A DNA stretch of 64,000 nucleotides from a bacterium (GCA_030648715.1 JAUSGZ010000014.1:1055-65054), one strand, 5' to 3'; numbered from the stretch's first letter, positions 3,944-27,915 are shown. Notes: a model not told the origin generated them from the letters alone. Numbers and translations: made by a program.

Positions 3944-6913
3944 TTACACTTTGGAGATCCGCAGCAGAATTGCGCGGTCGTTCAGCGTCACCGGCTCTCC
4001 TCCCGTTCCGGTGGTAATCGTGAGGGCATTGGTCTTACGCAGCACCTCGTCGCGGTGCGACGTCAGTACGTCATCGAGTGCGCCGTCGTAGATGACGGCG
4101 ATCCGGTCGGCAACCGTCAGCGCAGCCGCCTTGCGCAGATTGTTGATGCACCGCACTAATTCCCGCGCCAACCCGGCAACCCGCAGCTGGTCGGTCATCG
4201 CGGTGTCCAGCGCCACGGTTGCGCCGGTCCGATACTCTAACACGTTCAATTCTTCTTTGACAATATCCTGCAGTTCCGCCCCGATCGCGGGGCCGGTAAC
4301 GGCGGCCAGCGGCTGGCGCACCTTCAGCCCGGCTGACATCCGCAACGCCAAGCCCTCGGTCACCACGGCCCGAGCTTTGGTCATCGCTTCCAGCGCGACC
4401 GGGTCAACAGACTCCCGCTTCGGCCAGTCTTCCAAATGCACCGAGGCGAGCTTGCCGCCGACTTCCCGGTACACATATTCAGCAAAGAACGGCGTAAACG
4501 GCGCTAAAAGTTTTGCGGTCTGCAGCAGCACATATCCCAGGGTGGCTATCGCCTCGGGGTCGCCGGCTTTGAAACGGTCGCGCGAACGGCGCACATACCA
4601 CGTGGACAGGTCGGTGATGAAGTCGCTCATCGGCCGCGCCGCTTCGATGACCCCGTACTGGGACAGCGCATCGGTGACAGTTCCGTTCAGTTGGGAAAGG
4701 CGAACGAGGATCCACTGGTCCAACACGTGATCCGTTCTCGGGGGAACCACCTGCGCCTTAGGCTTGGGTACATACAGCCGGTAGAACGCCACGACGTTTT
4801 GCAGGATGAGGAATACTTTTTTGACGACCTCGTCGATCTGCTTGAGGTCGAAGTTCTTGGCCTCGCCCGGCTGGTTGATGGTGTAGAGGTACCAACGCAG
4901 CGGGTCGGTGCCGAACTTGTTGATGACATCCCAGGGGTTGACGATGTTGCCCTTGGACTTGGACATCTTGCGGCCGCTGGCGTCGTTGATATGGCCGAGA
5001 CAAATGACATTCTTATAGCTTGGGCCCTTGCCCATGATGGTGGACACGGCCAAGAGCGTATAGAACCACCCGCGCGTCTGGTCAATGGCCTCGCAGATAT
5101 AATCGGCCGGATACTGTGCTCCGAGCTTGTAGCTTGTAGGTGGTAGCTTGTAGGTTTTTTTGGATTTCGTGGTTGATAATTTACCATCGATCAATTCTTC
5201 ATTCTCGAACGGATAATGGTACTGCGCGAACGGCATCGAGCCGGAATCCAGCCACACGTCCATGACTTCCGGCACGCGTCGCATGGTCCCGCCGCACGTT
5301 GCACACGGGAAAGTCACTGCGTCGATGAATGGCCGGTGCAGATCCTTCGGAATTTTCTTGGCCAAATTTTTCAGCTCTGCCACCGACCCCACCACCTGCC
5401 ACGCACCGCAGCCTTGCGGTAATTTTGATTTTTTAATTTTTAATTTTGAATCAATTTTCGAAATTTTAAATTTGAAATTCGAGTTTCCCGTCTGGCAACG
5501 CCAGACGGGCATCGGCGTTCCCCAGTACCGCTCGCGCGAGATCGCCCAGTCTTTGACGCCCGAGAGCCACTCTCCGAACCGCCCCTCCTTAATGTGCGCG
5601 GGCACCCAGGAGATCTGCTCGGCGTTCTTGAGCAGCTCATCTTTCACCTTGGTCATCGCGACGAACCACGAATCCTTGGCGTAGTACAGGAGCGGCGAAT
5701 CGCAGCGCCAGCAGAACGGATAGTCGTGTTCGTAAAGTACGGTCTGCATGAAAGCGCCATTGCGCTTGAGATGGTCGTAGATGAGTTCCTGCGTGTCTTT
5801 GGCCTTCACGTATTTTCCGGCCAAACCGGTAACGCGCGGTAAAAATTTTCCGTCCAGCCCGACGGTATGCTGTTTGGGCAGCCCAACCTGTTCGCCCAGC
5901 CGGTAGTCATCCTCGCCGTACATCACTGCGGTGTGGACAATCCCCGTACCATCGGTTGCCGTCACAAATTCGGCTGGTACGACGGTCCATGCTACGGTCT
6001 TGTCACCGACGTCAACCGCGCCGACAAACAACGGCTGGTAGTGAACACCCACAAGCTGCGTTCCAGGAACGGTTGCCAGTACGCGATGTTCCTGCGCTCC
6101 AAAGACTGCCGGTACCAACGCTTCAGCCAACACATAATGTACACCGCCGACCTCAATACGCACGTACTTTAATTTGGGGTGCACCGCCAGCGCGACGTTG
6201 CCCGGCAGCGTCCACGGGGTCGTGGTCCATGTCAGGATGAAATCGCCCTTCTGCACGAACTGGTTGCCAACGGTGACGCGGCATTTGACGTAGACGGAGT
6301 CTTCCTTGATCTTTCGGTACCCAAGCGCCACTTCATGAGATGACAGGGAAGTGCCACAGCGCGGGCAGTACGGCACTACCTTGTGGCCCTGATACAACAA
6401 CTCGCGCGCGTGCGCCTTCGCAATGACTTTCCACACGCTTTCAATGTAGTCATTCTCATACGTGATGTACGGATGCTTCAGGTCCAGCCAGAACCCGATA
6501 CGCTCGGTCAATTTTTCCCAGTCATCCTTGAACTGCCAGACCAACTCCCGGCACTCCGCGTTGAACTTGGCAATGCCGTACGTTTCAATCTCGGGTTTGG
6601 ACTTCAGGCTCAGCTTTTTTTCCACCTGCAACTCCACCGGCAAGCCGTGAGTGTCCCAGCCGGCCTTTCGTTCCACGTGGTAGCCCTGCATCGTGCGGAA
6701 GCGGACGATGATGTCCTTGAAGACACGTGCCAACACATGGTGCACCCCGGGGGCGGCGTTCGCCGTCGGCGGCCCTTCGTAGAACACAAAATTCCCTTTT
6801 GGCGATTTACGCGCCAAAGTTTTGGAAAAGATTTTTCCCTTCTGCCAGCGGGCAAGGATCATTTCTTCTTCTGCGGGCCAGGAATTTTTTTGCTTTTGTT
6901 CATCCATTGTCAT
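3944..6913 (-). CDS. ileS: isoleucyl-tRNA synthetase
   Basis: 989 aa. HIGH-region P-TANAAPGVHHV, KMSKSKGN, editing CP1 domain motifs, WAISRERYWGTP, DQTRGWFYTLL. It has a eukaryote/archaeal-like (type 2) architecture and contains two AT-rich Lys-rich insertions. Confidence 0.93.
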   Translation of the reverse strand: MTMDEQKQKNSWPAEEEMILARWQKGKIFSKTLARKSPKGNFVFYEGPPTANAAPGVHHVLARVFKDIIVRFRTMQGYHVERKAGWDTHGLPVELQVEKKLSLKSKPEIETYGIAKFNAECRELVWQFKDDWEKLTERIGFWLDLKHPYITYENDYIESVWKVIAKAHARELLYQGHKVVPYCPRCGTSLSSHEVALGYRKIKEDSVYVKCRVTVGNQFVQKGDFILTWTTTPWTLPGNVALAVHPKLKYVRIEVGGVHYVLAEALVPAVFGAQEHRVLATVPGTQLVGVHYQPLFVGAVDVGDKTVAWTVVPAEFVTATDGTGIVHTAVMYGEDDYRLGEQVGLPKQHTVGLDGKFLPRVTGLAGKYVKAKDTQELIYDHLKRNGAFMQTVLYEHDYPFCWRCDSPLLYYAKDSWFVAMTKVKDELLKNAEQISWVPAHIKEGRFGEWLSGVKDWAISRERYWGTPMPVWRCQTGNSNFKFKISKIDSKLKIKKSKLPQGCGAWQVVGSVAELKNLAKKIPKDLHRPFIDAVTFPCATCGGTMRRVPEVMDVWLDSGSMPFAQYHYPFENEELIDGKLSTTKSKKTYKLPPTSYKLGAQYPADYICEAIDQTRGWFYTLLAVSTIMGKGPSYKNVICLGHINDASGRKMSKSKGNIVNPWDVINKFGTDPLRWYLYTINQPGEAKNFDLKQIDEVVKKVFLILQNVVAFYRLYVPKPKAQVVPPRTDHVLDQWILVRLSQLNGTVTDALSQYGVIEAARPMSDFITDLSTWYVRRSRDRFKAGDPEAIATLGYVLLQTAKLLAPFTPFFAEYVYREVGGKLASVHLEDWPKRESVDPVALEAMTKARAVVTEGLALRMSAGLKVRQPLAAVTGPAIGAELQDIVKEELNVLEYRTGATVALDTAMTDQLRVAGLARELVRCINNLRKAAALTVADRIAVIYDGALDDVLTSHRDEVLRKTNALTITTGTGGEPVTLNDRAILLRISKV

Positions 6914-6961
6914 AGGCGTACTATTTGCTTACGTTAGCACCGATTTTGACGCGGCGTCAAC

Positions 6962-6990
6962 CAAAAAACCGCCGTTGGGCGGTTTTCCCG
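6962..6990 (-). terminator. rho-independent terminator downstream of ferredoxin gene
   Basis: aaaaaaccgcc-gttg-ggcggtttt hairpin. On the minus strand it is followed by a T-run. Confidence 0.55.
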
Positions 6991-7005
6991 AGCCCGGAAT
7001 GGCGG

Positions 7006-7221
7006 CTATTTCCCCGGATTTTCTTCGTGCTCTTCCCAGGCGATCGCGGCGACCGGGCACATTTCAATGGCATCGGCGATCTTGTCCTTATACTTTTCGT
7101 AGTCTATGCCGTCCATCACGGTCGCCTTGCCTTCGGCATCCACTTTGAATACCTCGGGACAGACTGACTCGCAAGCGGCGGCCCCGATGCACTTGGCGCG
7201 GTCCACGACGGGCTTTTTCAT
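7006..7221 (-). CDS. monocluster [4Fe-4S]/[3Fe-4S] ferredoxin
   Basis: 71 aa. Cys pattern CIGAAACESVCP ... EMCP (Cx5Cx3CP...CP) is typical of small single-cluster ferredoxins. Confidence 0.8.
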   Translation of the reverse strand: MKKPVVDRAKCIGAAACESVCPEVFKVDAEGKATVMDGIDYEKYKDKIADAIEMCPVAAIAWEEHEENPGK

Positions 7222-7255
7222 AATGTAAATATTGTAGGACGGAACCCTGCCCCGG

Positions 7256-7630
7256 TCAAACGTCGCCGCTGACCCACTGTTTTACCTTTTCCACCAAAGC
7301 CTTGGGGGTCACGCTGGTTTTCACGACGAAATCCTTGGCCCCGAGCTTTAACCCCTTTTCGATCTCTTCTTTCTGGCTCAAATTGGAAAAAATGATGACT
7401 GGAATTTTCTTGGTGTCGGGGTCATTTTTGAGGTGCCGCAACGCTTCGTAGCCATCCACTTTTGGCATCAGAATATCCAGCAGGATCAGATCCACGGGGT
7501 TACCCTTGGCCAATAAGTAGCCGGCGTCGCCGTTGACGGCCGTGAACAGCGAAAACCCCGCCTGCTCCAACGCCAACCGGTACAGCTCCAGCAAACTTGG
7601 CTCGTCCTCAACGATAAGGATCTTCTTCAT
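7256..7630 (-). CDS. stand-alone response-regulator receiver domain protein (CheY-like)
   Basis: 124 aa. MKKILIVEDE...DLILLDILMP(K)VDG...FSNL...KLGA.DFVVK carries the conserved acidic pocket and phospho-acceptor Asp. There is no output domain. Confidence 0.85.
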   Translation of the reverse strand: MKKILIVEDEPSLLELYRLALEQAGFSLFTAVNGDAGYLLAKGNPVDLILLDILMPKVDGYEALRHLKNDPDTKKIPVIIFSNLSQKEEIEKGLKLGAKDFVVKTSVTPKALVEKVKQWVSGDV

Positions 7631-7690
7631 ACTTATTTATAGATGAGTACCTATATACTACGTACACACTTGCTTTGCAGTCAAACTTGA

Positions 7691-8728
7691 CTACGAAAAC
7701 CACTTCAAAAGGCGAATGATGCCCATTTTTGCTGCCTGACGATGTGCCGAGACGTCCTGACGCGAACGTATCTGTTCTCGATGGTCATGATAATATTTAT
7801 ACGCGCGCCAAAGCATTTCCTCGTTCGAGCAGGTTGGCTGCCACTGCAATTCGCGCTTGATCTTTTCAGTATTAAAGGAAAAATCTTCGGCGATCATCCG
7901 ATACTGATACGGACCAAGAGGTGATACGCCAAGGGTATACGCCAGCCGCATCAAAAAAAGCGTCGGCACGCGCGGGAGCGATGTGATCCTCGCTTTCGTT
8001 CCTGCGCGCGAGATGACGGATTGGTACACTTCGCGTAATGATTTCACGCCGTCTGCACCGATATGAAAAGTTGCGGAATGGTGGTACTCCAGTGCCCGTA
8101 GGCAAGCGGCTGCCAAATCCTTGGCGTAGATGAACTGGTACTTATTCTTACCGCCGTCAACCACCCAGACCTTACGGCCCTCGTCAATGAATTCGAATAG
8201 GATCGCCAAAAGCCCAAGCCGTCCCTCATCAATGATGGTTGGGCAGCGAAATGTAATGATGTGAAGATCTCGTTCATACTCGGATAATATTTTTTCTGCT
8301 ACCAGCTTTGACCGACCGTAAATTTCTGCCGGATCCGGAGCATCCTCTTCACGGACCGGCCGGTCAAATGATCTACCCCAGAGGCAATTGGAAGAAATAA
8401 AGATCAACTTGGGCACCCGAAAATCACGGCAGCATTCCGCCACGTTCCTCGTCCCGTCGACATTCGACGTCCACAAAAAATCTCTATCTTTCGCGGCGTG
8501 CGCGAGCACGGCTGCGCAATGGAAAACCGCGGTGTAACCCTCCGGTTGGAATAAACGACGCAGGGAAACGCGGTCGCGGATGTCTCCCTGGATCGGCGTC
8601 AACCGAGGATGCTGCTGCGCATGTGGCACGAGGTCGATGCTATCGCAAGAAAATCCTGATGCCAGGAGATGGTCAATCAAGATCCCGCCGAAAAAACCCG
8701 CTCCTCCAGTTACTAAAATTTTTTTCAT
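7691..8728 (-). CDS. NAD-dependent epimerase/dehydratase (extended SDR)
   Basis: 345 aa. N-terminal Rossmann VTGGAGFFGGIL and the SDR catalytic core. It is the last gene of the operon with two GT-C genes. Confidence 0.8.
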   Translation of the reverse strand: MKKILVTGGAGFFGGILIDHLLASGFSCDSIDLVPHAQQHPRLTPIQGDIRDRVSLRRLFQPEGYTAVFHCAAVLAHAAKDRDFLWTSNVDGTRNVAECCRDFRVPKLIFISSNCLWGRSFDRPVREEDAPDPAEIYGRSKLVAEKILSEYERDLHIITFRCPTIIDEGRLGLLAILFEFIDEGRKVWVVDGGKNKYQFIYAKDLAAACLRALEYHHSATFHIGADGVKSLREVYQSVISRAGTKARITSLPRVPTLFLMRLAYTLGVSPLGPYQYRMIAEDFSFNTEKIKRELQWQPTCSNEEMLWRAYKYYHDHREQIRSRQDVSAHRQAAKMGIIRLLKWFS

Positions 8729-8736
8729 ATACCAAG

Positions 8737-10383
8737 CTAGCGTTTTAACCCGACATCAATGTGGTCCAATGGCTGAAATACGCAGGTATGATACCGCTGC
8801 AGTTCTATCGTACCATACCGCCAATCAGGATGATGCGGGATGACGAACACTTCTCCGACCCGGCAGTATTGGCGCAAGGCGTTGTCCAAAAGACGATCGG
8901 GATCATAATGAACCGCCCCACCGGCGCGGACATACCACACGGTGTCGAAACCGCGCAGTTGCGCGCCAAGATCATGCAGGGATTCTTGGTTGATCCAGTG
9001 CAAACCGACCCGGCGGGCATAAGCAAGGGGAAGATCAATACCCTCGACCGACTCTTTGGGGATGGGAAGACGGACCATTGGGAGTCCCCCGCCGTAGTAG
9101 TAAGAAAGCAACACTGAATCTTCATAGTGAGCGACGATCGCGGTGCCGGGTTGCGGAGGAATTGTCCGCATGACGGAATGTACGACCGGCCAGTAAGCAT
9201 CCTGGTAGTGCAGCTTTGTGGTCAGGACTACGAAAACGTTGGCGCTCATCACGGCAGCAATCAACGCGACGAAAAACCACTGCTGCGCCCAGTGCCGCGT
9301 AAGATGCGAGATACCACGGAATATCAGGAGACAAAAGAACGGCAGCGTGTAGGAAACATATCGACTGACCGGGGCCCGCAAGCTCCAAAGGATGGTGAGG
9401 GGAACAAGAACGATGATCGCCAATGCGGCCGCCCGCAGATCGGTCACCCGCAATCCGATGGCAAGGGTGCGGCGGGAGAAACGGAATTGGAAGAACACCA
9501 GTCCCAGCGCGGTGATGACCAGGGTGATCACGGCGGAGGAGATCCACACGGGTACATCTGCCACATACCAGACGAGCAACTCAAACGGCATCCGCCAAAA
9601 AATGTAAAAATTGATCGGGATATTATCCAGCCAACGCTGAGAGGGCGCCAAATACCAGTGGAGCACTCGATCGTACAGCACCACGAACTGCGGCACATAC
9701 GCCGCAACGATCGCGACCTGACCGGCAACCCAAGGAATGATCGACCCTTCAACACGATGCTGGCGGCGCCAGAGCAACCACACGACATTGTGGGCAAAGA
9801 CAAAAAACCAGAACGGGTAGTGGATATAGGTCCCGACGATCCCGGCCACCACATACCAGCCATACCACGACCAGGACCGAGGGTAACGGAAGATCTGTGA
9901 AAGCAGCCACGTGAGAATAACCCCGGCTGCGACCAACAGAGCGTACATCCGCGTCTCCGTGGCGAAAAAAATCGTCGATTGTGCTATCCAAAAAAGCACG
10001 GTTGCCCGAAAAGCGACCGTGGCGTCGAACAGCTGCCGACCGAAAAAGTACACCAGCAACGCCGCGACAATCGTGGTCAGCAGCGATAATACTCCCGTCG
10101 CGATCTCTCCAACCCCGAAGGCAACGGTCCAGGCCTTGAGCAGAAAGTAATACCCGGGAGGAAACCAATCATTGGCGACAAATGCCAACATCCGAGCCCA
10201 TGGTTGCTGGACGTAATAGACGGTATTGGCCTCATCGAACCAATACGGCGCCGGCAGCTGGGTCAGCATGATCACTCCCGCAACCGCGCACGCCACCCCC
10301 GCGAACCATACCTCTGGACGCCAAAAGCGGAACGCTTTCAAGCGTGACCCTACTGCTTGGCGCAATGTTTGGAGGACTGGCAT
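8737..10383 (-). CDS. GT-C fold glycosyltransferase, ArnT/PMT-like (GT39/GT83 family), polytopic membrane protein
   Basis: 548 aa, about 12 TM helices. The first extracytoplasmic loop contains WFDEANTVYY (DE motif of PMT/ArnT enzymes). It overlaps the upstream gene by 34 nt. Confidence 0.75.
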   Translation of the reverse strand: MPVLQTLRQAVGSRLKAFRFWRPEVWFAGVACAVAGVIMLTQLPAPYWFDEANTVYYVQQPWARMLAFVANDWFPPGYYFLLKAWTVAFGVGEIATGVLSLLTTIVAALLVYFFGRQLFDATVAFRATVLFWIAQSTIFFATETRMYALLVAAGVILTWLLSQIFRYPRSWSWYGWYVVAGIVGTYIHYPFWFFVFAHNVVWLLWRRQHRVEGSIIPWVAGQVAIVAAYVPQFVVLYDRVLHWYLAPSQRWLDNIPINFYIFWRMPFELLVWYVADVPVWISSAVITLVITALGLVFFQFRFSRRTLAIGLRVTDLRAAALAIIVLVPLTILWSLRAPVSRYVSYTLPFFCLLIFRGISHLTRHWAQQWFFVALIAAVMSANVFVVLTTKLHYQDAYWPVVHSVMRTIPPQPGTAIVAHYEDSVLLSYYYGGGLPMVRLPIPKESVEGIDLPLAYARRVGLHWINQESLHDLGAQLRGFDTVWYVRAGGAVHYDPDRLLDNALRQYCRVGEVFVIPHHPDWRYGTIELQRYHTCVFQPLDHIDVGLKR

Positions 10384-11651
10384 AACAGGCTCGAATAGCC
10401 CAGGGAGGGAGAAGATAATGAGAGAAAGATCTGGCGAGGGGATACTTGGCGTACGACGGGAAGTATGCGCCCATCTGTTCCGCGGAATGCGTAGTAGAGG
10501 TTGAGGATGGCCAATACACCTGCCAATAACCCTCCCACCATCCGCAGACGGAGCTGATCCGACATCCTCGATATCGCTACCGCCATCGCGACGATGAACA
10601 TCGGACCAAAAACCACATAGTACTTTGGCACACCGACGTCAAAACCGGCCAACAGGAATATCGGTAGCGCGCCAACAACCAGCAGATAGGAAACCGGAGT
10701 GTTGGGTGGAGTGAACGTAACGGTCAGCCAACGTCGCTCGCGATGAAAGGTAAAGAGCAGTGGAAAGGACGTCAAAATGATGAGGATACCAACGCGTAAG
10801 TTGACACTCCAAGAAGCCGTCCAGGTCGGATAAAGATAGCCGTGCATCACGGAAAAGGGAAACTGCCGGGAAGGTACGGCGGGAGTCGCGGATGATATTC
10901 CTTCGGTAATGAACGCAGGAAGCAGACGAAGGTAATGGACGGCCACTGGCGCCACAACCATAAAAAGCAGGGCCTCAAGACGCCACCAGCGCTGCCATTG
11001 GACGGGCGTGATCCTCCACCGTCGCTGCAAGAGGGAAATGGCGGCAGTTTGGGAGAACAACACTAATAGTAGACTCGGGTTGGTGTAGACACCAAGAGCT
11101 GCCGTTGCCCCATACCACCATAAGGACGACGAACGCCCGATCTGAAAATATTGATACAGCGCAAAATTCGTTGCCGTTACCAGCACAATACCGAGCATAA
11201 GTGGGCTGGTTTCCGTAGAATACTGTATCCCAAGGTAACTCGACCAAAACAAGATGATGGAGAGAAGACCGCAAGCAGCCCCTCCCATGCGCTTCGCGAG
11301 TGCATACATCAGCCCGATGCCAACCAGCGTAATAACCAACGAAAGCCCTGCCGTGGCAAGCGGTGTGCTGCCGAAAAGACGCACCCAAAAACCTAGAAGT
11401 AAGCGATAGACCGGGGACGACTGCGCCGGATCCAAAAAGATGGGGGCGCCGCCGCTCAGCAGGCGAGCGCTCTTGGCCACTATTATCTCTTCGTCGGGCG
11501 TATACGGGAGCGCCGCCTGTCGCCAACGCACAACGATACCGCCGATGACCGCTGCACCCAGGAAAAGCCAAAATAGCGGCCGTTGCCAGTCTCGCCGCGT
11601 TTCCGATAACGGTGTTGCCGGATGTCCGAGGTCGCTCATACAGGTCAACAA
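10350..11651 (-). CDS. GT-C fold glycosyltransferase, ArnT/PMT-like membrane protein
   Basis: 433 aa, polytopic. Loop-1 YTPDEEIIVAKSARL (DE motif) with a hydrophobic core. Confidence 0.7.
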   Translation of the reverse strand: MLTCMSDLGHPATPLSETRRDWQRPLFWLFLGAAVIGGIVVRWRQAALPYTPDEEIIVAKSARLLSGGAPIFLDPAQSSPVYRLLLGFWVRLFGSTPLATAGLSLVITLVGIGLMYALAKRMGGAACGLLSIILFWSSYLGIQYSTETSPLMLGIVLVTATNFALYQYFQIGRSSSLWWYGATAALGVYTNPSLLLVLFSQTAAISLLQRRWRITPVQWQRWWRLEALLFMVVAPVAVHYLRLLPAFITEGISSATPAVPSRQFPFSVMHGYLYPTWTASWSVNLRVGILIILTSFPLLFTFHRERRWLTVTFTPPNTPVSYLLVVGALPIFLLAGFDVGVPKYYVVFGPMFIVAMAVAISRMSDQLRLRMVGGLLAGVLAILNLYYAFRGTDGRILPVVRQVSPRQIFLSLSSPSLGYSSLLCQSSKHCAKQ

Positions 11652-11822
11652 TGTGGCGTCAGCTGCGGCAATTCCTATCGCGTGGACCCACTCCTGCTGC
11701 CAAAATTAACCGCGCGGCATATTGCGGCCAACGATGTTGTCATATATAATTTTTTGGCAGGAATTTTCTTGGCTACGAGCGAGGTACCCGGACCTATGCG
11801 GCAAATGATACAATAAAGTAGC

Positions 11823-13259
11823 ATGGACAAAGCTCCGTATCAAGAAAAGTTACGCGTGCTCATCATCGGCGCAGGACCGGCCGGCTTGACGGCGGCGCTG
11901 GAAGGCGTGCGCCGTGGCTACTCGGTCACCGTATTGGAAGCCAGCGATCAATCGGGCGGACTGGCAAAGACCGTTTTCCACGACGGCTATGGCTTTGATA
12001 TCGGGGGCCACCGCTTTTTCACGAAATTCCCGCAGGTCGAACAGTGGTGGCACGAGGTGCTGCGGGACGACTTCATCACCGTCCGCCGGCAATCGCGCAT
12101 CTACTACCGCGGAAGATTTTTCGACTACCCGTTGCGGCCGCTCAATGCACTTGCCGGTCTGGGTCCAGGGATGAGCCTGCGTCTGGCGGGCAGCTACCTG
12201 TGGGCGCGCCTTCACCCACGTCGCCCAGAAACAACGTTTGAAGATTGGGTATCCAACCGTTTTGGCCGCCTGCTGTTCTCCATTTTTTTCAAAAGCTACA
12301 CGGAAAAAGTCTGGGGTATTCCCTGCAATGAGCTCTCGGCCGATTGGGCTGCGCAACGCATCAAATCACTATCCTTGAGCAAGGCGGTACTGAACGCCAT
12401 CCGACCTCAACGCGGAAGCATTACCACGCTCATCGAAGAATTTCAATACCCGCGGCGCGGCCCGGGCATGCTATGGGAGAGAGTGGTACAACTCGTGGAG
12501 GATGCGGGCGGCCGCGTGCTGCTGCAATCGCCGGTACAGCATCTGGTGGCGTTGCCCGGTCACGGATTCCGCGTAACAGCGATGGTAGACGGGAAGACAC
12601 AAGAACTTTTTGCCGATGCGGTCATCTCGACAATGCCCCTGCCAGACCTGGTAGCGATGCTGGAACCCGCGCCGCCCGCCGATGTGCGCGCCGCCGCCGA
12701 GCGGCTCACCTTTCGTGATTTTCTGAGTGTCTTGCTGGTGCTGAAAACAACCGCGCTCTTCCCCGATAACTGGATCTATATCCATGATCCGTCCATTCGG
12801 GCCAGTCGCGTCCAAAACTACGGGAACTGGAGCGCCGCGATGGTACCCCAACCAGGAACGAGCGGCATCGGCGTCGAATACCACTGCCAGCAAGGCGACC
12901 AACTGTGGACCAAAACCGACGACCAGCTCATTGCGCTAGCGACGGAAGAACTCTCGCGGCTGCGGCTCGCGGAACCGGCACAGGTGCAGCGCGGCTGGGT
13001 CATCCGAGAACCCTACGCGTACCCCCGCTATACCGACGACTACCAACAGCACGTGAAGACCATCGCACGTCATCTCGCAAGCATTCCGAGGCTACAGACC
13101 GTCGGCCGCGCCGGAATGCACAGATATAACAACCAGGATCACTCGATGCTCACGGCGATGCTGGCGATCGACAATCTCAGCGGAGCCCGCCATGACCTCT
13201 GGGCGGTGAACGCCGATGATGAGTACCACGAAATAAAAATATCAAAGCCGCGGCACTAA
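11823..13259 (+). CDS. FAD-dependent oxidoreductase, UDP-galactopyranose mutase-like / amine-oxidase fold
   Basis: 478 aa. GxGxxG VLIIGAGPAGLTAA, GGHRFF, and YTEKVWG (matches the YTEKQWG motif of Glf). It is embedded between GT-C genes. Confidence 0.7.
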   Translation: MDKAPYQEKLRVLIIGAGPAGLTAALEGVRRGYSVTVLEASDQSGGLAKTVFHDGYGFDIGGHRFFTKFPQVEQWWHEVLRDDFITVRRQSRIYYRGRFFDYPLRPLNALAGLGPGMSLRLAGSYLWARLHPRRPETTFEDWVSNRFGRLLFSIFFKSYTEKVWGIPCNELSADWAAQRIKSLSLSKAVLNAIRPQRGSITTLIEEFQYPRRGPGMLWERVVQLVEDAGGRVLLQSPVQHLVALPGHGFRVTAMVDGKTQELFADAVISTMPLPDLVAMLEPAPPADVRAAAERLTFRDFLSVLLVLKTTALFPDNWIYIHDPSIRASRVQNYGNWSAAMVPQPGTSGIGVEYHCQQGDQLWTKTDDQLIALATEELSRLRLAEPAQVQRGWVIREPYAYPRYTDDYQQHVKTIARHLASIPRLQTVGRAGMHRYNNQDHSMLTAMLAIDNLSGARHDLWAVNADDEYHEIKISKPRH

Positions 13260-13273
13260 CATTCGTTCCATTG

Positions 13274-14920
13274 CTAGCTTCCCGCCATCGGCCGGCAGAG
13301 GCCGGCCAGACGGTCGAACCGAAAGAGGAAGATCTTCAACGGCTGCGGCAACGGCACGTACGTCGGCGTCCACCCGTCCGCGATGAGCGCGACGTCCAGA
13401 TCGAATAAGCTGGGAGTGACCGACACCACCCACAGCCGGTCGTACCGTGAAAGATCGGGTGGCAACCGGTAGTCGCGGTACGGAATGTGCGGGTGCGTCA
13501 GCAGGTAGCCTTCTACCGGCGTCTGCCGCGGCGATCCCGACGCGATGGTCAGCTGTCGGGAGCCGATTGTTTCCGGCACGAGGCTGCCGACCGTCTGGCC
13601 GCCGCGGTAGTAATAGTCCAAGAGGATCCGGTAGTTGGGCCAGAATCCCACGATGAGCTCGCGTCCGCCGCGCTCTTGGCCCTCAATAACCCGCGCGACC
13701 GCCGGAAACTGGTGCTGCGGGTCCCACGTAGCGTCATTGGTAAAATACTGCGGACCGTTCATCAGCACGTAGGCGCAAACCGCCACCGCCACGACGGCCA
13801 GGTGCGGAAATCCCAAGCGTACGCGCGCGAACAGCTCCTGCCCGGCCAACGCGATGGCGATGGCAACGGCCGGCAGGACGAACAGCACGTGGCGCTGGTA
13901 GTACCAGGAGTAACGGCCCGACATCGGTGAAACCAGGAACAGCAGCAACGGCGCAACCACCCACATGCCCACCAGCACCAGCCGCTGCCAGCGGTACGCG
14001 GCCGAGGTGTTCCCCTGCCGAACGCGCGCGAACGCCGTAACCGCTGCGAAACCGGCCCCGACGACCAGGAGCAGTAGTGTTGAACCCTGGAGCAGCCGGC
14101 CGAACGCATCGACAGGCCATTTACCCGGGAAAAAGAGAAAATTCATCACAACGTCCAATGGCAGAAAATTTTCCGGCTGCGTCAGCGCCGACAGCGGCGT
14201 CAAGTCGCCGACCGTGCGGTACTGCGCGAAAAGGTTCTTCGCCAGTACGGGCACCCACGGCAGATAGGCAGCCACAATCCCTCCCAATGCCACGGAAAGC
14301 TGCGTTCTCCCTTTTTTAGCGCGCGGGACAAACACCATGGCCGCCAGCACCTGGCTGCCCAGGACAAACCAGTACGCGTAGTGTGTGTACAGCCCGGCAA
14401 CCGCGAGTATGGTAAAACCGGTTATGGCCGCCCGCGAACCGGTTGTTTGCCACCGCGAGAGCGCAAACCACCCGCCGATCGCTATCGCAGTCAGCAGCAT
14501 GTACGGGCGCGCCTCGCGGGAAAACTCCACGAAGAACGGCGAGAGCGCCATCGCCATTGCTGCGACCGACGCCGTTTTGCGATCGAACCACTCCCGAGCT
14601 AACCCGTACAGCAGCCCGACGGACAGCAGCGCGAACAGCAGAGAGAAACCGCGCAGCGCGAACGCCGAGTCGCCCACTGCGCGGACCCACCCCGCCATCA
14701 TGAGGTAATAGAGCGGGGGGTGGTTCTCGTACTGCGCCAGGTACGCGGTCATCTCCACGGGATTTTCCGAATGCCGGTACACGCTCCAGCTCAACACCTC
14801 GTCGAACCACAATGGTTCGCTGCGCAGGTGCGGCAGCCCCAACAAAAAAGTAACCGCGAGCGCGGCAATCAGTCCCATCGGCAATTTCTTAGTCATGGGA
14901 AAACGCAACAACTTGAGCAT
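13274..14920 (-). CDS. GT-C fold glycosyltransferase, ArnT/PMT-like membrane protein
   Basis: 548 aa, polytopic. Loop-1 LWFDEVLSWSVY (DE motif). It is a third paralog of the same family. Confidence 0.75.
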   Translation of the reverse strand: MLKLLRFPMTKKLPMGLIAALAVTFLLGLPHLRSEPLWFDEVLSWSVYRHSENPVEMTAYLAQYENHPPLYYLMMAGWVRAVGDSAFALRGFSLLFALLSVGLLYGLAREWFDRKTASVAAMAMALSPFFVEFSREARPYMLLTAIAIGGWFALSRWQTTGSRAAITGFTILAVAGLYTHYAYWFVLGSQVLAAMVFVPRAKKGRTQLSVALGGIVAAYLPWVPVLAKNLFAQYRTVGDLTPLSALTQPENFLPLDVVMNFLFFPGKWPVDAFGRLLQGSTLLLLVVGAGFAAVTAFARVRQGNTSAAYRWQRLVLVGMWVVAPLLLFLVSPMSGRYSWYYQRHVLFVLPAVAIAIALAGQELFARVRLGFPHLAVVAVAVCAYVLMNGPQYFTNDATWDPQHQFPAVARVIEGQERGGRELIVGFWPNYRILLDYYYRGGQTVGSLVPETIGSRQLTIASGSPRQTPVEGYLLTHPHIPYRDYRLPPDLSRYDRLWVVSVTPSLFDLDVALIADGWTPTYVPLPQPLKIFLFRFDRLAGLCRPMAGS

Positions 14921-15038
14921 TCAAGCACCGCGAACCGATGTGCAAACTGCCGTGTCATGATGCCGTAGAAGCTTCGCCAATATTTCCGATTCCACATATT
15001 ACCGACTACCTACTACCCCACTACTTACTATTCTCACA

Positions 15039-16778
15039 CTACATCGCGTCCGGCGCGGGGATGCCCAAAAGCGACAGCCCGCGGGCCATCACGGTCTTAA
15101 CTGCGAAAACGAGCTGCAGCCGGCTCGACAGCGTCGCGCCCTTGCTCTGCAGCACGGGGACATCCTGATAGAACGACGAGAACGTCTGCGCCAGCTCATA
15201 GAGGTAGGCCGACACAACGCTGGGGTCGTACACGGTCGCGGCACGCTGCACGGCGTGGGGAAAACGCGCCAGCGTTACGAGCAGCGCCTGCTCGAGCGGT
15301 TCCGTGAACGTCGGTTTCGTCTTCCGGGTTTTCCCGGCTTTCTCCAACAGGCTACAGCATCGCGCGTGCACATACTGCAGATACGGTCCGGTCCTGCCGG
15401 CGAACGCTAAGGATTTTTCCGGGTCGAACATCATCGTGGTTGTCGCATTGACCGACAGGATGTAGTACTTCAACGCCGCCAAGGCAATGGCGTGCGCCCG
15501 CTCCCTCACCGCGACGGCAGGCAATTTTTGGTGTCGCGCCCGCACTTCCTCGACCGCCAATTCGTCCAACAGGGAGAGGAGATCATCGGCGCCAGCGCCA
15601 GCCGGGATGCCTTGGCGCGATTTGATCTTGCCCGTCGGCAGCCGCATCATCCCGTACGATAAATGGTGCATCGGGTACGTCTGCCCCAGCTCCTGCATGA
15701 TGGCAAACAGCTGGCGGAACGCCAAATCCTGCTCCGCGCCAACGACGTAGATGGACAAGGCTGGGTCGTGCTTCCCTTTGAGCTGCGCCAGGTACAGGTC
15801 CTGCGTGATATACAGGCTGGTGCCGTCTGACCGCAGCAAAATTTTCTCCGGCAGCCCCTCGTCCTCCAACGGCGCATAGATGTAACCTTCGCTGTGGCGG
15901 CGGAACACCCCGCGCGCCAGCCCGTCCTCCACGACTTCCTTGCCGTGCCGGTAGATCTCGCTTTCAAAGTATCGCACCGCCGGATGGTCCACGCCCATCC
16001 GCTGCAATGTTTCCGTGAATCCATCCATCGTCCAATCAATGAGTTGACGCCAAATTCGCCGCACCTCGGGGTCGCCCGCCTCCCACTGGCGCAAACATTC
16101 CTGCGCCTCCTGTTCCAACTCGGGATGGGCTTCCACCTCTTGTCCGAAGCGCACGTAAAACTGGCCGACGAAATGGTCGGGCTTCATCCCCGCCGTTTCC
16201 GGCGTCGCGCCATTCCCCCAGCGGCGATAGGCGACCGTCGCCTTGCACAGCGCAATGCCGCGGTCGTTGTAGATCGAATTTTCCACCACCGTGAACCCGA
16301 GGGCGGAAAGCAAGCGCGACAGACTCCACCCCAGGCAGACGTTGCGCACGTGGCCCACCGTCATTGGCTTATTGGTGTTGGGCGAGAAATATTCCACCAG
16401 GATCGTTTTCCCTTTTCCAATATTCGCCGAGCCATACGCCGCTCCTTCTTTGACGATCTGGGGAAGCGTCAGCGCGGCGTAGGCGTCAGGCTGAACGAAA
16501 AAATTCACGTAGGGCCCTGCGGCCTGCGCGCGAGCGATCAGCGTCGCGGTTTTCGGCATCACTGCGGCCGCGATACGCCCTGCCACAACGGCAGGCGGTT
16601 CTCCCAAGGCTTTCCCCAGCGTAAAACAGGGCACCGTGAAGTGGCCCAGCGCCGGTTCCGGCGGGTAATCAACGGTGACCGTCGAAGTTTTCCCGACGAC
16701 GGCGCGCACAAAGTCAGTGATCTGTTCGCGGGCAGCCTGCTCCGCGCGGCTGAAATTTTTGTCCTCGATGATCGTCAT
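15039..16778 (-). CDS. argS: arginyl-tRNA synthetase
   Basis: 579 aa. N-terminal Arg-tRNA add-on domain, class I core with NTNKPMTVGHVRN (HIGH-like), and DALR anticodon-binding C-terminus. Confidence 0.92.
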   Translation of the reverse strand: MTIIEDKNFSRAEQAAREQITDFVRAVVGKTSTVTVDYPPEPALGHFTVPCFTLGKALGEPPAVVAGRIAAAVMPKTATLIARAQAAGPYVNFFVQPDAYAALTLPQIVKEGAAYGSANIGKGKTILVEYFSPNTNKPMTVGHVRNVCLGWSLSRLLSALGFTVVENSIYNDRGIALCKATVAYRRWGNGATPETAGMKPDHFVGQFYVRFGQEVEAHPELEQEAQECLRQWEAGDPEVRRIWRQLIDWTMDGFTETLQRMGVDHPAVRYFESEIYRHGKEVVEDGLARGVFRRHSEGYIYAPLEDEGLPEKILLRSDGTSLYITQDLYLAQLKGKHDPALSIYVVGAEQDLAFRQLFAIMQELGQTYPMHHLSYGMMRLPTGKIKSRQGIPAGAGADDLLSLLDELAVEEVRARHQKLPAVAVRERAHAIALAALKYYILSVNATTTMMFDPEKSLAFAGRTGPYLQYVHARCCSLLEKAGKTRKTKPTFTEPLEQALLVTLARFPHAVQRAATVYDPSVVSAYLYELAQTFSSFYQDVPVLQSKGATLSSRLQLVFAVKTVMARGLSLLGIPAPDAM

Positions 16779-16931
16779 ACGCCTGTCTTCTATTCTACCA
16801 GATTTCGCGCGCCAACAGGTCTTTTTTCCTTGACAAAATCAAAAAAATATGCTACCAATATATGCCTTTTGTTCATTCCGCGTGCTATTTCACAACCTTA
16901 CCCAACCTCGTTCCGAATTGAAAGGAGAACG

Positions 16932-17675: not shown

Positions 17676-17711
17676 GCCGGGCCCCCGGTAGTTCGACCGA
17701 CTGTTCTTTCG

Positions 17712-20581: not shown

Positions 20582-20610
20582 CCCCGCCGACACGACGGGG
20601 CCTTTTTTAT
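20582..20610 (+). terminator. rho-independent terminator
   Basis: ccccgccgacacgacggggcc followed by ttttttat. Confidence 0.55.
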
Positions 20611-25928: not shown

Positions 25929-25939
25929 GTAGGTGTTCG

Positions 25940-27901: not shown

Positions 27902-27915
27902 TAAATTTTGGGGGC

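What the first reader, a model, noticed from the sequence alone, without database searches (positions are those of the whole stretch)
7006..14920. Three GT-C (DE-motif) glycosyltransferases plus a UGM-like flavoenzyme and an epimerase: protein O-mannosylation-like or arabinan/galactan-like module, with a co-transcribed receiver protein and ferredoxin
Loop-1 DE motifs are visible in all three membrane proteins (WFDEAN, TPDEEI, LWFDEV). A flavoprotein with the Glf motif YTEKVWG sits between them. An epimerase, a lone REC-domain protein and a single-cluster ferredoxin follow in the same orientation. In established systems UGM-type flavoenzymes supply furanose donors, and ferredoxins or reduced flavin are needed for their activity. 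A receiver-domain protein embedded in a glycosylation operon is unusual and may gate it by phosphorylation.
Basis: partly seen in the sequence, partly recalled or inferred. Interest (0 to 1): 0.55.

Follow-up and report, generated by a model that had tools for sequence, protein, structure and literature searches.

The report
Swappable surface-glycosylation gene cassette
This stretch of a tiny uncultured (Patescibacteria) bacterium is a swappable cell-surface sugar-decoration cassette: three membrane glycosyltransferases, plus an enzyme pair that probably makes an unusual ring-contracted sugar donor. The neighbouring signalling protein and ferredoxin belong to the conserved flank, not demonstrably to the cassette.

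Summary
All seven genes and all four quoted motifs are real at the stated coordinates. One correction: the 478-aa flavoenzyme is on the opposite (+) strand.

- **GT-C proteins:** all three are genuine. They hit PMT_2, the DE pair sits just after TM1 and is invariant in 15 paralogues, and the model matches only GT-C folds.
- **Flavoenzyme:** it belongs to NCBIfam PRK07208, a very large family with no assigned function. Its only strong solved relatives are eukaryote-type UDP-galactopyranose mutases. The flavin histidine loop and all diphosphate-binding Arg/Tyr are invariant. One galactose contact (N207) and the uridine contacts differ.
- **Partners:** family members sit beside or are fused to GT2, GT4 and GT-C transferases. 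They recur next to orthologues of the 345-aa SDR found here.
- **REC and ferredoxin:** these look like conserved flank. In the closest relative they are 97% identical, yet the DNA between REC and GT-C#3 holds five other GT-C genes and no flavoenzyme or SDR. Another relative has the flavoenzyme but no REC or ferredoxin.

Best reading: a strain-variable extracytoplasmic glycosylation island whose SDR and mutase-like pair diversify the sugar donor. The sugar, the acceptor and the lipid-carrier step are inferred. Gating by the receiver and flavin reduction by the ferredoxin are unsupported.

The parts
13274..14920 (-). GT-C#3, a GT39/ArnT-like polytopic glycosyltransferase of 548 aa. DE at residues 40-41, followed by the HPPLYY, EARPY and YTHY motifs. 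It lies in the conserved flank next to ArgRS.
   Evidence: PMT_2 at E 1.9e-12. Orthologues are 87% identical in L116 and 51-54% in L002 and L004. The AlphaFold model (pLDDT 80.6) matches only GT-C folds: ArnT TM 0.55, then ALG9/12, STT3/PglB, Pmt4, AftA/B and Emb.
11823..13259 (+). FAD enzyme of 478 aa, NCBIfam PRK07208.1-4, a bacterial sister family of eukaryote-type UDP-galactopyranose mutase. It is a probable NDP-sugar pyranose/furanose mutase. It is on the strand opposite to all the other genes.
   Evidence: NCBIfam E 3e-194. PDB phmmer gives TcUGM 4.7e-24 and AfUGM 1e-23 against PPO 3e-8. The family profile gives AfUGM 7e-37. Foldseek gives TM 0.78-0.81 to UGMs and 0.75 to PPO. G61-G62-H63, R179, Y319, R329, Y400, R429, Y435 and N437 are invariant.
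10350..11651 (-). GT-C#2, a short GT-C paralogue of 433 aa with no C-terminal extracytoplasmic domain. DE at residues 53-54. Its end overlaps the start of GT-C#1 by 34 nt.
   Evidence: PMT_2 at E 6e-8. Equivalent short paralogues exist in L002 (403 aa), L004 (435 aa, 35-nt overlap with the next GT-C) and L116 (394 aa).
8737..10383 (-). GT-C#1, a long GT-C paralogue of 548 aa with DE at residues 50-51.
   Evidence: PMT_2 at E 1.4e-8. It is 38% identical to L003:6717-8318. TM1 spans residues 23-41, followed by DE.
7691..8728 (-). Extended SDR of 345 aa ('SDR345'), with GxxGxxG, Ser112/113 and Y137-x3-K141. It is the probable nucleotide-sugar epimerase or reductase partner of the flavoenzyme. It starts 8 nt after the GT-C#1 stop.
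   Evidence: Epimerase at E 4e-37. It falls below every NCBIfam equivalog cut-off, with GalE matching only the N-terminal half. Homologues of about 345 aa are 60-67% identical across phyla. Orthologues lie adjacent to the flavoenzyme family in L114 and L117, and nearby in L029 and L115.
7619..13280 (.). The variable cassette: SDR345, GT-C#1, GT-C#2 and the flavoenzyme. In the closest relative it is replaced by a different 7.9-kb block of five GT-C-type genes.
   Evidence: blastn of window against L116 aligns 6186-7618 at 94.5% and 13281-17679 at 84.3%, with nothing aligned in between.
7256..7630 (-). Stand-alone receiver (REC) protein of 124 aa with intact E8-D9, D52, S82 and K104. It lies in the conserved flank and is probably part of a separate two-component module.
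   Evidence: Response_reg at E 2.7e-25. It is 97.6% identical in L116 and 76% in L004, present at the cut end of L002 and absent from L003.
7006..7221 (-). Single-cluster ferredoxin of 71 aa with motif C11-x2-A14-x2-C17...C55-P. Only three Cys ligands are present, so a [3Fe-4S] type is likely. It lies in the conserved flank.
   Evidence: Fer4_13 at E 9e-15. It is 97.2% identical in L116 and 56% in L004. No homologue was found in 83 flavoenzyme loci.
7655..7684 (-). Promoter-like site TTGACT-18-TAGTAT, in the 60-nt gap upstream of REC.
   Evidence: This is a consensus match only.
7231..7259 (-). Promoter-like site TTGACC-17-TACAAT (10 of 12 positions, the best in the region), immediately upstream of the ferredoxin.
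   Evidence: This is a consensus match only.
6963..6986 (-). Terminator-like hairpin AAAACCGCC-CAAC-GGCGGUUUU followed by further U residues, about 20 nt after the ferredoxin stop and before IleRS.
   Evidence: Sequence and fold. The stem forms in both the MFE and the centroid structures, but the energy of the 56-nt segment does not stand out from shuffles (z = -0.7).

Best explanation
The region is a strain-variable extracytoplasmic glycosylation island of a Parcubacteria-type (Patescibacteria) genome. It is inserted between two conserved flanks: ArgRS with GT-C#3 on one side, and REC, ferredoxin and IleRS on the other.

**Shown here.**
- The three membrane proteins are GT-C-fold transferases of the GT39/ArnT kind, with the catalytic Asp-Glu in the first outer loop.
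- The flavoenzyme belongs to a very large bacterial family with no assigned function. It shares the fold, the flavin histidine loop and the whole diphosphate-binding constellation of eukaryote-type UDP-galactopyranose mutase.
- The flavoenzyme and the 345-aa SDR recur as neighbours across phyla.
- Family members are adjacent to, or fused to, GT2, GT4 and GT-C transferases.
- The cassette between REC and GT-C#3 is exchanged in the nearest relative.

**Inferred pathway.**
1. SDR345 sets the configuration of a nucleotide sugar, most simply by C4 epimerisation to a galacto- or arabino-configured sugar.
2. The reduced flavoenzyme contracts the pyranose ring to a furanose.
3. A GtrB/ArnC-type GT2 encoded elsewhere loads the sugar onto polyprenyl phosphate. 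Candidates in this window are 54456-55259 and 41955-42665.
4. After flipping, the GT-C paralogues transfer it to surface proteins or wall polymers.

The identity of the sugar (Galf, L-Araf or another) and of the acceptor is open.

REC and the ferredoxin are most likely a separate small signalling and redox module, partnered with the 7TM-GAF histidine kinase at 22639-24930. They happen to lie in the conserved flank.
For: **GT-C proteins.** PMT_2 hits. The DE pair is invariant and lies after TM1. The model matches only GT-C structures.

**Flavoenzyme is UGM-like.** Sequence, profile and fold comparisons agree. These residues are invariant: H63 loop, R179 (= AfR182), Y319 (= Y317), R329 (= R327), Y400 (= Y419), Y435 (= Y453), N437 (= N457) and R429 (= R447). 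Their roles are taken from Table in PMC3624792.

**A nucleotide-sugar role for the family.**
- Same-strand neighbours in diverse loci are mostly transferases: GT2 in 13/55 downstream and 13/62 upstream, GT4 in 10/55, PMT_2 in 4, and AftD-type GT-C in 2.
- An ArnC-like GT2 (E 1e-51) overlaps the flavoenzyme stop in Anaerolineae, beside three GT-C-type genes (PMT, PMT_2 and a DUF6311 protein).
- L114 reads GT2(AglJ/PpgS-like)-GtrA-SDR345-flavoenzyme-polytopic protein-GT2-polytopic protein.
- L117 reads flavoenzyme-SDR345-YfhO.
- Fusion proteins exist: P0322 is flavoenzyme+GT2+PMT_2, P0323 is flavoenzyme+GT2, P0382 is GT4+flavoenzyme, and P0320 is UXS-like SDR+flavoenzyme.

**Cassette swap and independence of REC/Fd.**
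Against: - No enzyme of the PRK07208 family has a demonstrated activity that I could find.
- The AfUGM galactose contact N207 is an invariant Ile here. The uridine contacts are also replaced: Q107 to R, F106 to L, and N163 to T. The substrate is therefore not simply UDP-Galp as in known UGMs.
- Foldseek scores protoporphyrinogen oxidase almost as high as UGM (TM 0.75 against 0.80), so the fold alone does not decide the question.
- No polyprenyl-phosphate GT2 and no GtrA flippase lie in or next to the cassette. The link to the GT-C genes here rests on adjacency and on other genomes.
- L116 carries six GT-C genes with no flavoenzyme, so the GT-C array does not need it.
- SDR345 falls below all curated equivalog cut-offs, so its reaction is a guess.
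- REC and Fd sit next to the GT-C array in four of five related genomes, so a functional link cannot be excluded.
Confidence: 0.55

Rival explanations
1. All seven genes form one functional unit. The ferredoxin keeps the mutase flavin reduced, and the receiver protein gates glycosylation by phosphorylation.
For: REC and Fd follow the GT-C array on the same strand, with short gaps of 60 and 34 nt. The same order is seen in L004 and L116, and REC alone is seen at the cut end of L002. UGMs need reduced flavin, and the physiological reductant of bacterial UGMs is unknown (PMC3624792).
Against: - The flavoenzyme is on the other strand.
- L116 has REC and Fd (97% identical) without the flavoenzyme or SDR. 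L003 has the flavoenzyme without REC or Fd.
- Fd was found in 0/83 and REC in 5/83 other flavoenzyme loci.
- In L097 a REC-Fd pair follows two histidine kinases next to UvrC, with no glycosylation genes.
- Promoter-like sites precede both genes and a terminator-like hairpin follows Fd.
- Eukaryote-type UGMs use NAD(P)H directly.
Confidence: 0.1
2. A DprE1/DprE2-like pair in a different fold. The flavoenzyme oxidises a hydroxyl of a polyprenyl-phosphate-linked sugar and SDR345 reduces the keto intermediate. Together they epimerise the lipid-linked donor that the GT-C enzymes use.
For: - The FAD enzyme, NAD-dependent SDR and GT-C combination parallels the arabinan pathway. It also parallels the auxiliary epimerases of pentofuranose three-component systems. 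There, an SDR acts on Und-P-ribofuranose, and Bacillus systems carry multiple GT-C enzymes, FAD oxidoreductases and NAD(P) epimerases (PMC11127046 and PMC11194591).
- SDR345 scores best against lipid-acting SDR models (OleD, HpnA) as well as GalE, and it ends in an amphipathic helix.
- The tight SDR345-flavoenzyme pairing fits a two-step reaction.
Against: - The flavoenzyme is not VAO/DprE1-type.
- It keeps every Arg and Tyr that binds the diphosphate of a nucleotide sugar in UGMs.
- Members are fused or adjacent to cytoplasmic Leloir GT4 and GT2 enzymes and to a UXS-like SDR. Both point to a nucleotide-sugar substrate.
- No UbiA-type phosphoribosyl synthase was seen among the window ORFs scanned.
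Confidence: 0.12
3. Coincidental neighbours. The GT-C paralogues are ordinary protein or wall mannosyl- or glucosyl-transferases that use a common polyprenyl-P-hexose. The flavoenzyme and SDR serve a different, cytoplasmic glycan pathway and merely share a recombination hot spot.
For: L116 has the GT-C array without the flavoenzyme. Many family members sit in Leloir-type EPS loci with GT4 and GT2 and no GT-C. The window holds a second glycan locus at 41-56 kb that could consume the product.
Against: In five related or unrelated lineages the flavoenzyme, with or without SDR345, directly abuts GT-C-type proteins. A flavoenzyme+GT2+PMT_2 fusion exists.
Confidence: 0.18
4. The flavoenzyme is a protoporphyrinogen oxidase, phytoene desaturase or amine oxidase with no role in sugar metabolism.
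For: Pfam hits Amino_oxidase. JGI names homologues 'protoporphyrinogen oxidase'. PPO is a close structural match.
Against: Sequence similarity to PPO, desaturases and amine oxidases is confined to the N-terminal FAD-binding stretch. The UGM-specific residues are invariant. The gene neighbourhoods are glycan loci throughout.
Confidence: 0.03

Closest known systems
Eukaryote-type UDP-galactopyranose mutase (A. fumigatus 3UTE/3UKH, T. cruzi 4DSG)
   Same: - Three-domain fold, TM about 0.8.
- The GGH histidine loop over the flavin.
- Arg and Tyr residues that clamp the diphosphate: R182, Y317, R327, Y419, Y453.
- N457 and R447.
- The YxxKVW motif.
- Length of about 480-510 aa.
   Different: - Only about 21% identical.
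- The galactose contact N207 is an invariant Ile.
- The uridine contacts Q107, F106 and N163 are R, L and T.
- Y334 is Trp.
- Bacterial origin, and usually paired with glycosyltransferases or a 345-aa SDR.
- No activity has been shown.
Bacterial Glf/UNGM family (E. coli 1I8T, K. pneumoniae 2BI7, C. jejuni 4MO2, D. radiodurans 3HDQ)
   Same: FAD Rossmann domain and the YT-x-K-x-WG motif. The profile match covers only about the first 170 residues (E about 3e-12). The role as an NDP-furanose supplier would be the same.
   Different: About 100 residues longer. No Pfam GLF domain hit. It is much closer to the eukaryotic type.
Three-component extracytoplasmic glycosylation systems (GtrA/GtrB/GtrC-type; CsbB/GtcA/YfhO; ArnC/ArnT)
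   Same: GT-C transferases with a loop-1 acidic motif. In related loci the flavoenzyme lies with ArnC/PpgS/AglJ-like GT2, GtrA and GT-C or YfhO genes.
   Different: In this window the GT2 and the flippase are not in the cassette. There are several GT-C paralogues rather than one. A mutase-like flavoenzyme and an SDR are added upstream of the donor step.
Pentofuranose three-component systems and the mycobacterial arabinan pathway (PPPRS/DPPRS, DprE1/DprE2 or ORF13, GT136/Emb/Aft; PMC11127046)
   Same: The logic of a furanose delivered on a polyprenyl phosphate to GT-C enzymes, with auxiliary FAD or NAD enzymes that diversify the sugar. An AftD-type GT-C lies next to the flavoenzyme family in two actinobacterial loci.
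   Different: No UbiA-type PRPP-dependent synthase was found. The flavoenzyme is not VAO/DprE1-type. The conserved diphosphate site points to a nucleotide-sugar route rather than a PRPP route.
Protein O-mannosyltransferases (GT39)
   Same: DE followed by HPPL motifs, PMT_2 and PMT Pfam hits, and the NCBI name 'glycosyltransferase family 39 protein'.
   Different: No MIR domains. The best structural match is ArnT (GT83), not Pmt. The genes occur in arrays of 2-7 divergent paralogues (20-38% identical). Donor and acceptor are unknown.

Membership tests
UDP-galactopyranose mutase (eukaryote type) | FAD-binding Rossmann domain plus the three-domain UGM fold | tested here: met
   The GxGxxG motif is invariant. 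The AlphaFold model has pLDDT 85.8. The top Foldseek hits are AfUGM and TcUGM at TM 0.78-0.81, but PPO reaches 0.75.
UDP-galactopyranose mutase (eukaryote type) | Histidine loop (G62-H63 in AfUGM) over the flavin N5 | tested here: met
   G61-G62-H63-R64 is invariant in 28 and in 7 family members.
UDP-galactopyranose mutase (eukaryote type) | Diphosphate-binding residues R182, Y317, R327, Y419 and Y453 | tested here: met
   R179, Y319, R329, Y400 and Y435 are all invariant. The residue list comes from PMC3624792.
UDP-galactopyranose mutase (eukaryote type) | Galactose contacts N207 and N457 | tested here: not met
   N457 corresponds to an invariant N437. N207 aligns with an invariant Ile204. 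The preceding flap, residues 191-202, is modelled with low confidence.
UDP-galactopyranose mutase (eukaryote type) | Uridine recognition (F106, Q107, N163, W167) | tested here: inconclusive
   W164 is conserved. Q107 is R105, F106 is L104 and N163 is T160. Thr is the D. radiodurans state according to PMC3624792.
UDP-galactopyranose mutase (eukaryote type) | Catalyses the pyranose/furanose interconversion of an NDP-sugar with reduced flavin | not testable with these tools
   This needs an enzyme assay. No paper on the PRK07208 family was found.
GT-C glycosyltransferases (GT39/GT83-like) | Polytopic membrane protein with a GT-C fold | tested here: met
   8-9 predicted TM segments in each protein. 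All 46 significant Foldseek hits of the GT-C#3 model are GT-C enzymes or GPI-pathway relatives, with ArnT the best. GT-C#1 and GT-C#2 are inferred by paralogy.
GT-C glycosyltransferases (GT39/GT83-like) | Acidic catalytic motif (DE/DxD) in the first extracytoplasmic loop | tested here: met
   DE lies at residues 50-51, 53-54 and 40-41, just after TM1. It is invariant in 15 paralogues.
GT-C glycosyltransferases (GT39/GT83-like) | Uses a polyprenyl-phosphate-linked sugar donor | not testable with these tools
   Inferred from family knowledge only.
Protein O-mannosyltransferase (GT39 sensu stricto) | Matches the PMT model; MIR domains in the luminal loop; Dol/polyprenyl-P-Man donor | tested here: inconclusive
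   PMT_2 is hit but not PF02366 PMT in the window proteins, and no MIR hit was found. The NCBIfam mannosyltransferase MT1671 model scores 24-25 bits against a cut-off of 900.
Three-component (GtrABC-type) glycosylation system | Polyprenyl-phosphate GT2 synthase and small GtrA-type flippase encoded with the GT-C | tested here: not met
   Neither lies within 7006-14920. The L114 GtrA has no match in the window by tblastn. Weak ArnC/PgfS-like GT2 candidates lie about 40 kb away at 54456-55259. Both components are present beside the flavoenzyme in L006 and L114.
DprE1/DprE2 decaprenyl-phosphoribose epimerase system | VAO-type FAD enzyme, classical SDR and UbiA-type phosphoribosyl synthase | tested here: not met
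   The flavoenzyme has the amine-oxidase/UGM fold. SDR345 is an extended SDR. No UbiA hit was found among the window ORFs scanned.
Two-component response regulator (receiver domain) | Acidic pocket, phospho-acceptor Asp, and conserved Ser/Thr and Lys | tested here: met
   E8-D9, D52 (in LLDILMPKVDG), S82 and K104 were read from the sequence. Response_reg at E 2.7e-25. There is no output domain and no adjacent kinase.
Single-cluster [4Fe-4S] ferredoxin (Fer4_13) | CxxCxxC...CP ligand set | tested here: not met
   The motif is C11-x2-A14-x2-C17...C55-P, so the second Cys is Ala. It is Ser in L004 and Cys in L097. Three ligands suggest a [3Fe-4S] cluster; this is an inference from general ferredoxin knowledge.

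The most novel reading that the evidence does not exclude
The PRK07208 flavoenzyme and its 345-aa SDR partner are a widespread, so far uncharacterised two-enzyme route to a furanose nucleotide sugar. The sugar may be a pentofuranose such as L-Araf rather than Galf, given three hints: N207 replaced by Ile, a UXS-flavoenzyme fusion, and UDP-glucose dehydrogenase next to SDR345 in L115. The product would be loaded onto polyprenyl phosphate and delivered by GT-C enzymes. That would make this a nucleotide-sugar-fed counterpart of the PRPP-fed pentofuranose three-component systems. In Patescibacteria it would sit in a cassette that is exchanged between close strains, like a serotype locus.
Probability: 0.3. 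Interest if true: 0.6.

Novelty: new variant of a known kind. Interest (0 to 1): 0.42.

Why it matters
Patescibacteria live attached to host cells, and their surface chemistry is almost unknown.

- **Surface variation.** A cassette of GT-C transferases and donor-modifying enzymes differs between genomes that are 84-95% identical in the flanks. This points to strain-level surface-glycan variation, as with O-antigen loci. Such variation would bear on host and phage recognition.
- **An unannotated enzyme family.** The flavoenzyme family is very large: 2,138 clusters at 50% identity with E <= 1e-30. It is annotated only as 'NAD(P)/FAD-dependent oxidoreductase' or, misleadingly, 'protoporphyrinogen oxidase'. 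The evidence here gives a concrete, testable function (NDP-sugar mutase), a partner enzyme, and a set of natural fusions to guide experiments.

Tried and rejected
- **Literature.** Searches for PRK07208, bacterial eukaryote-type UGMs, lipid-linked galactofuranose donors, GT39 in the candidate phyla radiation, and new pyranose/furanose mutases found nothing on this family. They returned only the comparators cited.
- **Genome scan for close relatives.** The GTDB genome scan returned only relatives about 50-55% identical from other phyla. I used these for a neighbourhood census instead.
- **Gene calling.** A greedy longest-ORF gene caller failed in high-GC loci. I replaced it with same-strand neighbour ORFs plus Pfam.
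- **Metagenome scan with REC.** It found only generic receivers 30-50% identical. Just one of them (L097) carried a ferredoxin.
- **The 345-aa gene at the end of L004.** It is not the SDR; it is truncated ArgRS.
- **GC content as evidence of transfer.** The cassette is lower in GC (0.50-0.56 against about 0.61), but so is part of IleRS, so I do not rely on it.
- **Repeats, structured RNAs and tRNAs.** None were found at the cassette borders or in the region.
- **AFDB Foldseek library.** It was unavailable.
- **Terminator energy.** It is not distinguishable from shuffles.

Full report
**Observation**

- Ferredoxin, 7006-7221 (-).
- Receiver protein (REC), 7256-7630 (-).
- A 345-aa extended SDR, 7691-8728 (-).
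- GT-C#1, 8737-10383 (-).
- GT-C#2, 10350-11651 (-).
- A 478-aa flavoenzyme, 11823-13259.
- GT-C#3, 13274-14920 (-).

IleRS (3944-6913) and ArgRS (15039-16778) flank them. Every quoted motif is present, and Pfam confirms the domain calls. No RNA family or tRNA lies in the region.

One thing needs correcting. The flavoenzyme is on the + strand. It is divergent from GT-C#2 and convergent with GT-C#3, so it cannot be part of a single operon with the rest.

**The GT-C proteins**

- All three hit PMT_2 above the gathering score.
- Each has 8-9 hydrophobic segments, with the DE pair 9-12 residues after the first.
- In an alignment of 15 paralogues from this window and three related contigs, D-E is invariant. 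So are the later ETR/EAR-x-Y and YTHY motifs.
- A model of GT-C#3 (pLDDT 80.6) matches only GT-C structures. ArnT is best at TM 0.55, followed by ALG9/12, STT3/PglB/AglB, Pmt4, AftA/AftB and Emb.
- NCBI names the protein 'glycosyltransferase family 39 protein'.
- GT-C#2 belongs to a short type without the C-terminal outer domain. Its 34-nt overlap with GT-C#1 is mirrored by a 35-nt overlap in L004.

**The flavoenzyme**

It is a full-length member of NCBIfam PRK07208.1-4 (E 3e-194), a model that carries no function.

Comparison with solved structures:
- The only strong sequence relatives are eukaryote-type UDP-galactopyranose mutases: T. cruzi at 4.7e-24 and A. fumigatus at 1e-23. Protoporphyrinogen oxidase scores 3e-8.
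- A profile of 28 family members widens the gap:

| PDB group | E-value | Region matched |
|---|---|---|
| AfUGM | 7e-37 (130 bits) | most of the protein |
| L-amino-acid oxidase | 3e-15 | first ~75 residues only |
| Bacterial Glf/UNGM | ~3e-12 | first ~170 residues |
| Protoporphyrinogen oxidase | 4e-9 | N-terminal stretch only |

- A confident model (pLDDT 85.8) superposes best on UGMs (TM 0.78-0.81). PPO is close behind at 0.75, so fold alone does not decide.

Residues were mapped through the HMMER alignments, and their roles were taken from the table in PMC3624792.
- Invariant in the family: the histidine loop G61-G62-H63; the diphosphate clamp R179, Y319, R329, Y400 and Y435; N437; and the FAD-pyrophosphate Arg R429.
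- Different: the galactose contact N207 is an invariant Ile204, and Q107, F106 and N163 are R, L and T.

Equally, the enzyme cannot be filed as a UDP-Galp mutase.

**What the family does elsewhere**

The family is very large. There were 8,000 of 8,000 scored hits, and 2,138 clusters at 50% identity with E <= 1e-30. Members are about 55% identical across Gemmatimonadota, Acidobacteriota, Chloroflexota, Actinomycetota, Cyanobacteria and Verrucomicrobiota.

Same-strand neighbours in diverse loci are dominated by glycosyltransferases:
- GT2 in 13 of 55 downstream and 13 of 62 upstream positions.
- GT4 in 10 of 55.
- PMT_2 in 4.
- AftD-type GT-C in 2.

Individual loci point the same way:
- In an Anaerolineae genome the flavoenzyme stop overlaps the start of an ArnC-like polyprenyl-phosphate GT2 (E 1e-51), beside three GT-C-type genes.
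- In Lacunisphaera it sits in a nucleotide-heptose-like context.
- Some cluster representatives are fusions: flavoenzyme+GT2+PMT_2 (P0322), flavoenzyme+GT2 (P0323), GT4+flavoenzyme (P0382), and a UXS-like SDR+flavoenzyme (P0320).

All of this fits an enzyme that makes a nucleotide-sugar donor. I found no paper that characterises the family.

**The SDR**

It has the NAD motif and a Ser/Tyr/Lys triad. It falls below all curated cut-offs, and GalE matches only the N-terminal half.

Homologues of about 345 aa are 60-67% identical across phyla. Of the six loci with this SDR that I examined, five also carry the flavoenzyme family within 8 kb:
- This window.
- L114 (Parcubacteria): GT2-GtrA-SDR345-flavoenzyme-polytopic protein-GT2-polytopic protein.
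- L117 (Verrucomicrobiales): flavoenzyme-SDR345-YfhO, with 2-nt and 33-nt gaps.
- L029 (Acidobacteriota).
- L115 (Peregrinibacteria).

The sixth locus, from Methylosinus, has only a 13-TM protein beside the SDR. The flavoenzymes in these loci keep all the invariant residues.

The SDR is therefore a genuine partner. Whether it is a C4 epimerase, which is the simplest reading, or a keto-reductase is not resolved.

**REC and the ferredoxin**

REC has an intact phospho-acceptor pocket. The ferredoxin has only three Cys ligands.

Five related arrangements are informative:

| Locus | Gene order |
|---|---|
| Window | IleRS-Fd-REC-SDR-GTC-GTC-flavoenzyme-GTC-ArgRS |
| L004 | IleRS-Fd-REC-GTC x3-flavoenzyme-GTC-ArgRS |
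| L002 | REC (cut by the contig end)-GTC x2-flavoenzyme-GTC x4-ArgRS |
| L003 | IleRS-GTC x2-flavoenzyme-ArgRS, with no REC or Fd |
| L116 (closest relative) | ArgRS-GTC x6-REC-Fd-IleRS, with no flavoenzyme and no SDR |

Against L116, window 6186-7618 aligns at 94.5% and 13281-17679 at 84.3%. REC is 97.6% identical and Fd 97.2%. Nothing between 7619 and 13280 aligns.

So REC and Fd belong to the conserved flank, and the flavoenzyme/SDR/GT-C block is an exchangeable cassette. Further points against a functional link:
- No similar ferredoxin occurs in 83 other flavoenzyme loci, and only 5 have any receiver.
- In L097 a REC-Fd pair follows two 7TM-GAF histidine kinases, with no glycosylation genes.
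- The window's kinase at 22639-24930 has the same architecture and is 34% identical over its full length to one of those kinases.
- Promoter-like hexamers precede REC (TTGACT-18-TAGTAT) and Fd (TTGACC-17-TACAAT). A hairpin with a U-run follows Fd. These are consensus-level observations, and the scan total is not above chance.
- Eukaryote-type UGMs are reduced by NAD(P)H directly.

Gating by REC and flavin reduction by Fd therefore remain unsupported. They are not excluded, because REC and Fd do adjoin the GT-C array in four of five genomes.

**Mechanism proposed**

Shown:
- The GT-C fold and catalytic motif.
- The UGM-like active-site scaffold.
- The SDR-flavoenzyme pairing.
- The association of the family with GT2, GT4 and GT-C enzymes.
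- The cassette exchange.

Inferred:
1. SDR345 prepares a galacto- or arabino-configured nucleotide sugar.
2. The reduced flavoenzyme contracts it to the furanose.
3. A GtrB/ArnC-type GT2 encoded elsewhere makes the polyprenyl-phosphate donor. Candidates are 54456-55259 and 41955-42665.
4. The GT-C paralogues transfer the sugar outside the membrane.

The sugar is unresolved. Three hints point to a pentose such as L-arabinose: N207 replaced by Ile, a UXS-like fusion, and a UDP-glucose dehydrogenase next to SDR345 in L115. These are leads, not tests.

**Comparison and novelty**

The closest known frameworks are two. One is the three-component extracytoplasmic glycosylation systems. The other is the furanose-on-lipid logic of arabinan synthesis and of the pentofuranose systems described in PMC11127046.

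This locus differs from them in three ways:
- It lacks the GT2 and the flippase in cis.
- It has a UGM-like rather than a VAO-type flavoenzyme.
- It implies a nucleotide-sugar route rather than a PRPP route.

I rate it a new variant of a known kind, of moderate interest. What remains of value is a very large enzyme family with no assigned function, its conserved SDR partner, and the strain-level cassette exchange. Together these give a concrete experimental lead.

Noticed in passing
window 7619-13280 versus L116 11602-19512: Between flanks that are 84-95% identical at the DNA level, the closest relative carries five different GT-C-type genes in place of SDR345, GT-C#1, GT-C#2 and the flavoenzyme. 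The exchange resembles a serotype-type cassette swap, and the breakpoints fall at gene boundaries.
   Followed up: partly
window 41033-55974: A second glycan locus:
- Extended SDR (41033-41971) overlapping a GT2 (41955-42665).
- Three polytopic proteins of 10-11 TM segments with no Pfam hit (43054-45120, 49994-52063, 52070-54562).
- Carbamoyltransferase (46817-48547).
- Wzx-like flippase (48561-49943).
- ArnC/PgfS-like GT2 (54456-55259) overlapping a classical SDR (55228-55974).

It could supply the lipid-carrier step that the cassette lacks.
   Followed up: partly
window 22639-24930 (-): An orphan histidine kinase with 7TM-GAF-HisKA-HATPase architecture. It is 34% identical over its full length to the kinase that directly precedes a REC-ferredoxin pair in the unrelated low-GC contig L097. 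It is a likely partner of the REC at 7256-7630.
   Followed up: partly
window 7006-7221 (-): The ferredoxin has Ala at the second cluster-ligand position (C-x2-A-x2-C...CP). The L004 orthologue has Ser and the L097 protein has Cys. This suggests a [3Fe-4S] rather than a [4Fe-4S] cluster.
   Followed up: no
P0320, P0322, P0323, P0326, P0382, P0374 (cluster representatives): Natural fusions of the flavoenzyme family. The partners are a UXS-like SDR, GT2 plus a PMT_2 GT-C, GT2 alone, a GFO/IDH/MocA oxidoreductase, GT4, and a methyltransferase. Whether these are real genes or merged gene calls was not checked.
   Followed up: partly
L009 2587-11284 (Lacunisphaera): A flavoenzyme homologue overlaps a nucleotidyltransferase gene. 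It sits with a GHMP kinase, a SIS isomerase and a HAD phosphatase, a layout like nucleotide-heptose synthesis. Some family members may therefore act on sugars other than hexoses or pentoses.
   Followed up: no
window 24000-28000: A low-GC stretch (0.42-0.47, against about 0.6 elsewhere). It holds an OleD/HpnA-like SDR (24906-25928) and a class I/II aminotransferase (25940-27160). A 924-aa PKD-domain protein and an AMP-binding enzyme follow. This may be acquired DNA.
   Followed up: no
window 20607-21602 (-) and L115 5163-7426: A 331-aa SDR carrying DNFNPYYD and YAATK motifs, which from memory are typical of UDP-glucuronate 4-epimerases. It is 49% identical to the SDR that follows a UDP-glucose dehydrogenase just upstream of SDR345 in L115. 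This hints at a uronic-acid or pentose branch.
   Followed up: no
L004 11440-11646: A 68-aa ORF overlaps the stop of the flavoenzyme gene in two independent contigs (L004 and L005). It has no counterpart in the window.
   Followed up: no
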